Positions 37,793-39,309 of a DNA stretch of 42,286 nt are shown piece after piece. The translations under genes were made by a program, and so were the position numbers. How positions within the stretch are numbered: position 1 is the first letter of the stretch; each line of letters begins with the position of its first letter. Below the pieces are notes generated by a model that had not been told where the DNA came from, ran no database searches, and was given only the letters and a program-made list of their open reading frames with translations. The DNA comes from Candidatus Treponema scatequi (GTDB lineage Bacteria; Spirochaetota; Spirochaetia; Treponematales; Treponemataceae): contig JAGHSB010000075.1 in assembly GCA_018066075.1 (NCBI GenBank), forward strand, positions 1 to 42,286, in the 5' to 3' direction.

Positions 37793-37818
37793 AAAAAAAA
37801 GCCGCCTTGTTCGGCGGC
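37793..37818 (-). terminator. Rho-independent terminator on the minus strand with no annotated gene to terminate
   Basis: Minus strand GCCGCC-GAACAA-GGCGGC followed by T8. Confidence 0.85.
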
Positions 37819-37893
37819 CTGATTAATGCGAGGTTCAAACTAAAGTGACCTGCATTGTAAATGTTTTTTCAGCTTAACTGCTGATAGTCTTGT

Positions 37894-37938
37894 TTAGCGT
37901 TTAGCCACGTCCTGGCTTGATAATTCTGTTGGTAACAT
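37894..37938 (-). CDS. Possible 14-aa small ORF (MLPTELSSQDVAKR) within the candidate sRNA; an in-frame upstream ATG at 37977 gives 27 aa
   Basis: AAGGAGG (37951-37945) with a 6-nt spacer before ATG 37938; TAA at 37896-37894. Confidence 0.3.
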   Translation of the reverse strand: MLPTELSSQDVAKR

Positions 37939-37998
37939 TCGTTGCCTCCTTATCAAGTAACCGGTATGCGTCCTCATCTCGCTCCTGACTACATCTAT

Positions 37999-38026
37999 AT
38001 ATTAGCATACAATTAACATAATGCAA
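37999..38026 (-). promoter_or_regulatory. Sigma70-type promoter for the candidate sRNA
   Basis: Minus strand TTGCAT (38026-38021), 16 nt, TAATAT (38004-37999) with TGn extension. Confidence 0.65.
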
Positions 38027-38136: not shown

Positions 38137-39309
38137 ATGAAAGAACTTGAACTAAAGTATGGATGCAATCCGAACCAAAAACCTGCAAAGGTTTTTATGG
38201 AAAATGGCGATCTTCCAATTACCGTTGTAAATGGAAGACCTGGATTTATCAACCTTTTGGACGCTCTTAATGGCTGGCAGCTTGTAAAAGAATTAAAAGA
38301 AGCTACTGGTCTTGCTGCAGCAACTTCATTTAAACATGTAAGCCCTGCCGGCGCTGCAGTTGGACTCCCTTTGTCAGATACTTTAAAGAAGATTTATTTC
38401 ACAGATGATGTGGAACTTACTCCACTTGCATGTGCTTATGCTCGTGCGCGCGGTGCTGACCGTATGTCTTCTTTTGGTGACTTCATTTCGTTAAGTGATG
38501 TTTGTGACAAAGCAACAGCTCTTCTTATCAAGAAGGAAGTTTCTGACGGTGTTATCGCACCTGGTTTCTCTCCTGAAGCTTTAGAGATCCTCAAAGCAAA
38601 GAAAGGTGGAAACTACTGTGTAATTCAGATTGACCCGAATTACGTTCCGGCCGATCTCGAAAGAAAGCAGGTATTCGGTGTTACATTTGAACAGGGACAC
38701 AACTTTTTGAAAATCGACAATTCTGTTCTTAACAACATTGTTACAAAGAACAAGAACTTGTCAGAAGATGACAAAAGAAACCTTGTAATCTCTTTGATTA
38801 CTCTCAAATATACACAGTCAAACTCAGTATGTTTCGTAAAAGACGGACAGGCAATCGGTATCGGTGCCGGACAGCAGTCACGCGTACATTGTACACGCCT
38901 TGCTGGTCAGAAAGCCGACAACTGGTGGCTCAGACAGTCTCCAAAAGTACTCGGACTTCAGTTCGTAGACGGAATCAAACGCGCTGACCGCGACAATGCA
39001 ATCGATGTTTACATCGGAAGCGAATACATGGATGTTCTCGCAGAAGGAAAATGGCAGAACATCTTTAAAGTAAAACCAGAAGTATTTACTGCAGAAGAAA
39101 AAGCAGAATGGATCAAACAGAACAACAACGTTGCTGTAGGATCTGATGCATTCTTCCCATTCGGTGACAACATCGAACGCGCAAGAAAATCTGGCGTTAC
39201 AGTTGTAGTTCAGCCGGGCGGCTCTGTTCGCGATGACCTTGTTATCGAAGCAGCTGATAATTACAACATGGTAATGTGTTTTAATGGAATAAGATTGTTC
39301 CATCACTAA
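38137..39309 (+). CDS. purH: AICAR formyltransferase, short PurH-type lacking the N-terminal IMP cyclohydrolase domain
   Basis: Starts at LKYGCNPNQ; SFKHVSPAG, ADRMSSFGD, KYTQSNSV, GAGQQSR, SDAFFPF, QPGGSVRD, RLFHH; 390 aa. Confidence 0.9.
   Translation: MKELELKYGCNPNQKPAKVFMENGDLPITVVNGRPGFINLLDALNGWQLVKELKEATGLAAATSFKHVSPAGAAVGLPLSDTLKKIYFTDDVELTPLACAYARARGADRMSSFGDFISLSDVCDKATALLIKKEVSDGVIAPGFSPEALEILKAKKGGNYCVIQIDPNYVPADLERKQVFGVTFEQGHNFLKIDNSVLNNIVTKNKNLSEDDKRNLVISLITLKYTQSNSVCFVKDGQAIGIGAGQQSRVHCTRLAGQKADNWWLRQSPKVLGLQFVDGIKRADRDNAIDVYIGSEYMDVLAEGKWQNIFKVKPEVFTAEEKAEWIKQNNNVAVGSDAFFPFGDNIERARKSGVTVVVQPGGSVRDDLVIEAADNYNMVMCFNGIRLFHH

What the first reader, a model, noticed from the sequence alone, without database searches (positions are those of the whole stretch)
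37793..38026. Orphan ~200-nt structured transcript with looped AGGACG repeats: candidate CsrA-sequestering sRNA in a spirochaete
Seen: the minus strand between the lipoprotein gene and purH has a promoter (TTGCAT-16-TAATAT) and a strong GC terminator with T8, but no sizeable ORF. The RNA can form TAGTC/GACTA and AGCG/CGCT closing stems, an 8-bp CTTGATAA/TTATCAAG stem, CAGC/GCTG and AATGC-AGGT/ACCT-GCATT hairpins, and two small hairpins whose loops carry the same hexamer (ATG-AGGACG-CAT and AGCC-AGGACGT-GGCT). Two more GGA sites are CAGGAG and AAGGAGG. Known: CsrB/RsmZ-type sRNAs titrate CsrA through CAGGA(U/C/A)G-type motifs in hairpin loops, whereas spirochaete CsrA is described as being antagonised by the protein FliW. 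I am not aware of a Csr sRNA described in Treponema. Inference: this may be an undescribed RNA sponge for CsrA or another RNA-binding regulator.
Basis: partly seen in the sequence, partly recalled or inferred. Interest (0 to 1): 0.85.

Follow-up and report, generated by a model that had tools for sequence, protein, structure and literature searches.

The report
Treponema structured RNA with conserved mini-gene
This is a real, uncatalogued, stand-alone RNA gene of about 200 bases in gut treponemes, whose conserved fold always carries a ribosome-binding site, a start codon and a tiny reading frame; it is therefore likely a translated regulatory RNA rather than the multi-site CsrA sponge first proposed.

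Summary
The locus is a real gene: sigma-70-type promoter, about 200 nt, six conserved helices and an intrinsic terminator. It has no Rfam match. Homologues occur in 50 of 101 genomes of this gut Treponema genus and were not found in other spirochaete genera searched. There are 1-4 copies per genome, among unrelated neighbours.

The repeated looped AGGACG is mostly specific to this strain: two copies in 8 of 82 homologues, and GGA counts are at chance level. What is conserved is a Shine-Dalgarno sequence in a covarying hairpin loop, followed 3-6 nt later by a start codon (114 of 114 copies). An independent set gave 67 of 67, two of them with UUG in place of AUG. The ORF has 6-18 codons in nearly all copies, and a Pro codon stays in frame through indels. 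One Shine-Dalgarno variant loses GGA in a csrA-positive genome.

Best reading: a translated mini-ORF RNA in which ribosome engagement likely matters more than the peptide. One conserved upstream GGA loop leaves CsrA gating possible. Expression is not shown. The scan noted an analogous, unrelated RNA before (e1-5121998).

The parts
38021..38026 (-). -35 hexamer TTGCAT of a sigma-70-type promoter
   Evidence: TTG-type hexamer in homologues, TTGCAT in 50 of 104
37999..38007 (-). extended -10 element (TG-n-TAATAT), 16-nt spacer; start site predicted at about 37993
   Evidence: TG in 99 of 104, 16-nt spacer in 96 of 104; start site not measured
37957..37992 (-). 5' arm: helix P1 (37992-37984 with 37964-37957) enclosing P2
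   Evidence: 8 pairs, 93.7% of cells paired, 5 with compensatory change
37968..37982 (-). P2 hairpin, 3-bp stem with purine-rich 9-nt loop ending in GGA; candidate protein-binding site
   Evidence: stem covaries; GGA kept in 110 of 112, also in the divergent loop of G134/G166
37942..37956 (-). P3 hairpin, 3-bp stem, with the Shine-Dalgarno sequence (37949-37945) in its loop
   Evidence: UUG/CAA, ACG/CGU and AUG/CAU versions, 98.8% paired; GGAGG 108, GGAGA 4, GGGGG 2
37894..37938 (-). mini-ORF, 14 codons (MLPTELSSQDVAKR); family consensus start MQFPTK
   Evidence: start codon invariant, Pro codon kept in frame
37903..37917 (-).
   Evidence: 5 of 5 pairs with compensatory change; two AGGACG in only 8 of 82
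37869..37884 (-). P5 hairpin after the stop codon
   Evidence: 98 of 109 full-length homologues vs 7% in shuffles, many stem sequences
37825..37856 (-). P6 two-part hairpin
   Evidence: 92.1% paired, 6 of 8 pairs compensatory
37793..37820 (-). intrinsic terminator
   Evidence: 109 of 109 full-length homologues

Best explanation
A free-standing gene with its own promoter and terminator makes a predicted 200-nt folded RNA whose conserved Shine-Dalgarno loop and start codon likely recruit ribosomes to a mini-ORF of mostly 6-18 codons, and the likely function lies in that act of translation (holding or pacing ribosomes over the first codons, including a fixed Pro codon) more than in the peptide. 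Shown: the promoter, terminator, covarying helices, invariant start site and kept frame. Inferred: transcription; translation; gating of initiation by a protein bound to the P2 GGA loop (CsrA is the obvious candidate, since the two GGA loops lie within its bridging range); unwinding of P3/P4 by the ribosome, which would change the RNA's fold or lifetime; and protection of the 3' end by P5, P6 and the terminator. On this reading it works as a trans-acting sensor or decoy of translation initiation capacity.
For: A start codon lies 3-6 nt after the Shine-Dalgarno sequence in 114 of 114 distinct true copies (112 parsed plus 2 with GGGGG). In a metagenome set found by a pattern that ends before the start codon, 65 of 68 distinct matches have AUG, 2 have UUG at the same place and 1 is a chance match. 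The Pro codon is in frame in all six observed spacer/offset combinations, in which the Shine-Dalgarno-to-Pro distance ranges over 9-14 nt. All Shine-Dalgarno variants can still pair with a standard anti-SD (inference; no 16S 3' end was found in G000). Against the peptide being the point: length varies from 6 to 30 codons; only Met and Pro are shared by MQFPTK, MRSPEI and MEPIEL; P4-P6 persist beyond early stops; and codon choice runs against genome usage (CAA 54 of 62 Gln codons vs 14% in G000; CCG 73 of 80 Pro codons vs 27%). Neighbours are unrelated: 112 protein clusters among 176 neighbours, and the downstream gene is co-oriented in 55 of 88.
Against: There is no direct evidence of transcription or translation: read laying gave contigs only and was inconclusive. 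89 of 112 ORFs are 13-16 codons, and third positions vary synonymously (Lys AAA 35 / AAG 32), which fits selection on a peptide as well. A single Pro codon is not a known strong stall (own knowledge), and two copies have Gln there. The unconstrained fold predicts the Shine-Dalgarno sequence mostly paired (mean unpaired probability 0.35). Whole-body folding is not exceptional (median z -0.47). No target or partner was identified.
Confidence: 0.4

Rival explanations
1. It is a small mRNA for a micropeptide of 13-16 residues (consensus start MQFPTK) that binds a cellular partner; the helices control its translation and stability.
For: Invariant start and frame; 89 of 112 ORFs are 13-16 codons; synonymous third-position changes and conservative F/Y/I/L swaps; no conserved gene downstream.
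Against: Lineages with 6-7-residue products (13 of 112) keep the whole RNA. Residues after position 6 vary with the P4 stem. Codon bias points to nucleotide-level constraint.
Confidence: 0.27
2. It is a CsrA decoy: one CsrA dimer bridges the P2 and P3 loops, and ribosome binding at P3 competes with it.
For: GGA at the 3' side of the P2 loop in 110 of 112 copies, kept even when the rest of the loop changes. The two GGA are 23-25 nt apart in 101 of 110; CsrA bridges sites 10-63 nt apart (PMC7652899, passage). csrA is found in 100 of 101 genus genomes and lies beside fliW in 61 of 61 checked.
Against: No GGA or ANGGA enrichment. AUGA precedes the P2 GGA in 97 of 110, whereas the commonest GGA context in 16 flagellin leaders is ACAU, with A at -2 in 32 of 58 sites. 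A at -2 of the P3 site occurs in 49 of 112, like ordinary Shine-Dalgarno sites (99 of 267). P3 becomes GGGGG in G248, which has csrA and fliW. One single-copy genome (G017) has lost the P2 GGA. About half the genus lacks a detectable copy although nearly all have csrA. A decoy has no need of an invariant reading frame.
Confidence: 0.15
3. It is the toxin half of a selfish RNA module (type I toxin mRNA or CreT-like mini-ORF toxin), which would explain the patchy, multi-copy, wandering distribution.
For: Patchy presence across the genus tree; up to 4 copies; neighbours more varied than those of tmRNA in the same 30 genomes (20 of 27 and 20 of 26 distinct vs 12 of 30 and 14 of 30). CreT toxins also combine a Shine-Dalgarno sequence, a mini-ORF and a hairpin.
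Against: No conserved antisense promoter (median score 0.04 vs 21 for the sense promoter). Peptides are hydrophilic (median GRAVY -0.4). No tandem rare or tandem Pro codons, except Pro-Pro in one copy. No Cas family among 60 of 112 neighbour clusters scanned. No match in phage, plasmid or viral collections.
Confidence: 0.1
4. It is a cis-acting attenuator (leader peptide) for the next gene.
For: Shine-Dalgarno sequence, short ORF and terminator in series resemble uORF motifs such as fthC (PMC11109978, passage).
Against: In this window the next gene is convergent. The downstream gene is on the opposite strand in 33 of 88 loci and has no shared function.
Confidence: 0.03

Closest known systems
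CsrB/CsrC/RsmY/RsmZ sRNAs (PMC7652899, passages read)
   Same: Stand-alone small RNA with terminator; GGA in hairpin loops; CsrA present in the host.
   Different: Two conserved GGA rather than many (CsrB has 22); no enrichment over shuffles; ANGGA context not conserved; invariant start codon and frame; FliW-type host; no Rfam match.
CreT mini-ORF RNA toxins (PMC8501985; bioRxiv 10.64898/2026.06.02.729485; passages read)
   Same: Shine-Dalgarno sequence, start codon, mini-ORF and protective hairpin, acting through translation rather than a peptide; Pro codons matter in the Pseudomonas form.
   Different: No tandem rare or Pro codons (one exception); no Cas neighbour seen among clusters scanned; longer and more structured; strong consensus promoter; toxicity untested.
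uORF/sORF motifs of comparative-genomics surveys, e.g. fthC uORF (PMC11109978, passages)
   Same: Conserved Shine-Dalgarno sequence and start codon among hairpins before a terminator.
   Different: No consistent downstream gene; fits that paper's sORF definition better than its uORF one; Treponema is not mentioned in its main text.
Type I toxin mRNAs (e.g. aapA, ibs) and dual-function sRNAs (e.g. SgrS, Spot 42) - recalled, no call
   Same: About 200 nt, structured, own promoter and terminator, small ORF, sometimes multi-copy.
   Different: Peptide hydrophilic and variable; no antisense promoter; no conserved base-pairing target identified.

Membership tests
CsrB/Rsm sRNA | Many GGA motifs, above chance | tested here: not met
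   4.6 per RNA vs 4.3 in shuffles over 80 full-length homologues
CsrB/Rsm sRNA | ANGGA(N) context in hairpin loops, conserved | tested here: not met
   ANGGA 0.8 vs 1.3 expected; P2 has AUGA before GGA in 97 of 110; P3 has A at -2 in 49 of 112
CsrB/Rsm sRNA | At least two looped GGA within dimer-bridging distance | tested here: met
   23-25 nt apart in 101 of 110; range from PMC7652899
CsrB/Rsm sRNA | csrA in the host | tested here: met
   the one genome without it lacks the whole flagellar contig
CsrB/Rsm sRNA | GGA-dependent binding of CsrA | not testable with these tools
   needs EMSA or CLIP
Any Rfam family (incl. 6S, tmRNA, CsrB, riboswitches) | Score at or above the gathering threshold | tested here: not met
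   0 in the window; best weak hit 21.6 bits vs 63; 0 in 8 homologue loci; tmRNA lies elsewhere; 6S model finds nothing in G000
CreT RNA toxin | Shine-Dalgarno sequence + start codon + mini-ORF + hairpin | tested here: met
CreT RNA toxin | Two consecutive rare or Pro codons | tested here: not met
   codon table; Pro-Pro in 1 of 112
CreT RNA toxin | Located in a CRISPR-Cas locus with creA | tested here: not met
   no Cas family in 60 of 112 neighbour clusters scanned; only nearest genes within about 1.5 kb examined
Type I toxin-antitoxin | Hydrophobic small toxin and antisense RNA promoter | tested here: not met
   GRAVY median -0.4; no conserved antisense promoter
Leader-peptide attenuator | Consistent co-oriented downstream gene | tested here: not met
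Stand-alone translated sORF RNA | Conserved start codon and frame, no fixed downstream gene | tested here: met
Stand-alone translated sORF RNA | Transcript and ribosome occupancy shown | tested here: inconclusive
   contigs only; no ribosome data

The most novel reading that the evidence does not exclude
A new kind of riboregulator: a stand-alone RNA in which CsrA (at the P2 and P3 loops) and the ribosome (at the P3 Shine-Dalgarno sequence and mini-ORF) compete for the same molecule. It would couple translation capacity to CsrA availability and be the first RNA partner of a FliW-type CsrA in spirochaetes.
Probability: 0.15. Interest if true: 0.85.

Novelty: new variant of a known kind. Interest (0 to 1): 0.58.

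Why it matters
It adds an uncatalogued RNA family in abundant gut treponemes, with unusually clean comparative evidence for an obligatory translation start inside a conserved fold (AUG is replaced only by UUG; the frame survives indels). Cultured carriers exist (T. bryantii, T. saccharophilum, T. ruminis, T. zioleckii), so two open questions become testable: whether short-ORF RNAs act through the ribosome or through the peptide, and whether an RNA can act on CsrA in a FliW-using bacterium, which a 2020 review lists as undetermined (PMC7652899).

Tried and rejected
Rfam by gathering score and by E-value: nothing credible. 6S: no model match in G000, and the fold is not rod-like. tmRNA: lies elsewhere; ARAGORN missed it.

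A pseudoknot between the Shine-Dalgarno GGA and UCC in the ORF, suggested by RNAalifold, has no covariation and is unsupported. G117 seemed to lose csrA together with the P3 GGA, but it lacks fliW, flgL and two flagellins as well (a missing contig), and its relative G248 has the same variant with csrA; rejected as support for CsrA. One flagellin leader in G000 shares AUGAGGA with P2, but its orthologues do not.

False matches dropped before counting: Chryseolinea L070, G223 (L158), the second G105 hit (L179), metagenome L386, and the four of seven weak R2 hits that were fetched (L276-L279). A second model added no genome.

Expression: in RNA runs X3 and X4 (one study) whole contigs span 37794-38022 and 37795-38017. 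They stop at the terminator but run about 25 nt into the promoter; X1 (another study) differs; depth is low. This is inconclusive. One search had a mis-registered structure and was repeated. No match in viral contigs, plasmids or phages.

Full report
OBSERVATION. It lies divergent from a 390-aa AICARFT/IMPCHase-family gene (purH) and convergent with a 143-aa ORF of no Pfam family that has a lipoprotein-like N-terminus. The terminator is called by the scan, but the promoter is not. The strand alone folds at z -1.67. Rfam gives no match at gathering score in the window, only chance-level hits by E-value, and none in 8 homologue loci. tmRNA is elsewhere in the genome and the 6S model finds nothing.

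FAMILY. BLAST found the element in 20 of 60 genomes of the genus and in 0 of 40 others. A pattern scan of GTDB gave 91 stretches. Of the 80 listed, 79 are titled Treponema or Spirochaetaceae/Spirochaetales/Treponemataceae, mostly from rumen or gut, including T. bryantii, T. ruminis, T. zioleckii, T. saccharophilum and T. pectinovorum; one, in Chryseolinea, is a chance match. A covariance model of the 5' 106 positions matched 50 of 101 genus genomes. Of 151 genomes of the order, 11 matched: 10 in this genus and one false hit. Of 151 of the phylum, 3 matched, all in this genus. A retrained model added no genome with a credible hit. Copy number is 1-4. On a FlgL-FliW-CsrA tree of 61 genomes (31 with the RNA, 30 without), carriers fall in most subclades with non-carriers interspersed. 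This fits an old origin with repeated loss; I did not test transfer. These are 'not found in those searched' results, and the search scored only part of its candidates.

STRUCTURE. On 81 aligned 5' halves, P1 (8 bp), P2, P3, P4 and a trial pseudoknot give 92.9% of cells paired and 14 of 22 pairs with compensatory change. No shuffle of 500 reached this, and slid controls gave 24-42% paired. The pseudoknot itself has no covariation. The search pattern constrained part of these sequences, and relatedness inflates the counts. P6 gives 92.1% paired with 6 of 8 pairs compensatory on 24 sequences. P5 is present in 98 of 109 full-length copies against 7% in shuffles, and the terminator in 109 of 109, with a median length of 197 nt. 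The promoter is conserved in 104 of 110, with no conserved antisense promoter. The neighbours form 112 clusters among 176 genes, and the downstream gene is co-oriented in 55 of 88. They are unrelated metabolic, transport and regulatory genes (60 of 112 clusters scanned), and more varied than tmRNA's neighbours in the same 30 genomes. It is therefore a stand-alone gene, not a leader.

THE CONSERVED CORE IS A TRANSLATION START. Of 117 distinct profile hits, 112 have GGAGG (108) or GGAGA (4) in the P3 loop with AUG 3-6 nt later, and two more have GGGGG plus AUG. The other three are two partial hits on one decayed copy and the Chryseolinea chance match. For an independent test I used 99 metagenome matches to a pattern that ends before the start codon. 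Of 68 distinct ones (37 new), 65 have AUG, 2 have UUG at the same position, and 1 is chance. The Pro codon stays in frame across six spacer/offset combinations; I estimate at least four independent events, with a chance of about 1 in 80 if frame did not matter (inference). ORFs run 6-30 codons, and 89 of 112 have 13-16. Most start MQFPTK; others start MRSPEI, MLPTK or MEPIEL. The window's ORF is MLPTELSSQDVAKR (37938-37894). Third positions vary synonymously, but CAA and CCG are used far above genome frequency, and P4-P6 persist in lineages that stop at codon 6-7.

THE CsrA HYPOTHESIS. csrA and fliW are adjacent in G000 and in 61 of 61 genomes checked. csrA is found in 100 of 101 genus genomes, so its presence does not discriminate carriers. 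GGA is not enriched (4.6 vs 4.3), ANGGA is not enriched (0.8 vs 1.3), and two AGGACG occur in only 8 of 82. The CsrA consensus is RUACARGGAUGU with ANGGAN loops (PMC7652899, passages). GGA sites in 16 flagellin leaders of this genus most often read ACAU-GGA, with A at -2 in 32 of 58; T. denticola flaB leaders are reported to carry CsrA sites (PMC9481697, passages). The RNA's P2 loop has AUGA-GGA in 97 of 110, and its P3 site has A at -2 about as often as ordinary Shine-Dalgarno sites (49 of 112 vs 99 of 267). G248 has csrA and fliW, yet its P3 reads GGGGG with start and frame intact. That layout resembles a CsrA-regulated leader more than a sponge.

MECHANISM. The most likely reading (0.40) is a translated mini-ORF RNA in which ribosome engagement at the looped Shine-Dalgarno sequence and first codons is the function, possibly gated by a protein on P2. 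The rivals are a micropeptide mRNA (0.27), a two-site CsrA decoy (0.15), a selfish toxin RNA (0.10) and an attenuator (0.03). That it is a real RNA gene with a functional translation start I put at about 0.85. Expression is not shown: RNA-run contigs cover the element and two stop at the terminator, but they come from one study, extend into the promoter and have low depth.

LITERATURE. Nine full-text searches (listings and abstract starts) found no description of this RNA or peptide. Passages were read in PMC7652899, PMC9481697, PMC8501985, PMC11109978, PMC5737381, PMC7160235 and bioRxiv 10.64898/2026.10.21.760802 and 10.64898/2026.06.02.729485. In the supplements of PMC8040213 the core motif has no hit in the files searched, but files 7 and 8 could not be read. 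One 30-nt candidate there (HMP2_6712) lists T. bryantii and Treponema sp. UBA3813, so overlap with a fragment cannot be excluded. bioRxiv supplements and most subscription papers were not searchable. The scan's own index had no look-alike, and one analogous RNA in another phylum (e1-5121998; not checked by me).

VERDICT. It is a real, uncatalogued structured RNA family with an obligatory mini-ORF: a new variant of a known kind, interest 0.58. The multi-site CsrA sponge is not supported, but CsrA gating remains open.

Noticed in passing
L180, L289, L290, L291, L293 (upstream of one flagellin paralogue); L181, L182 and orthologues: Flagellin leaders in this genus carry conserved long helices and recurring ACAU-GGA or GUGU-GGA sites; one paralogue has a structured leader of at least 170 nt. 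No Rfam hit for L180-L182.
   Followed up: partly
G032:C2:243047-243655 and G137:C42:25889-26456: The RNA gene lies about 85-120 nt downstream of tmRNA on the same strand in two related genomes.
   Followed up: no
G154:C10 ends (L174, L175): A 36.7-kb contig starts and ends with inverted, near-identical copies of the RNA; recent duplication or assembly break.
   Followed up: no
L167 (G051:C6:51804-53429): Two copies 1.5 kb apart; the second has lost the P2 GGA and has an ORF of at least 30 codons, and looks decayed.
   Followed up: partly
L009, L012, L014, L022 and kin: In the MRSP lineage the ORF starts with the same heptamer as the P2 loop, hinting at an old internal duplication or conversion.
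   Followed up: no
window 38137-39309: purH here is a short 390-aa form that matches only positions 76-311 of the Pfam AICARFT/IMPCHase profile.
   Followed up: no
G000 whole genome: No 6S RNA detectable by Rfam at E<=1; ARAGORN misses the tmRNA that Rfam finds.
   Followed up: no
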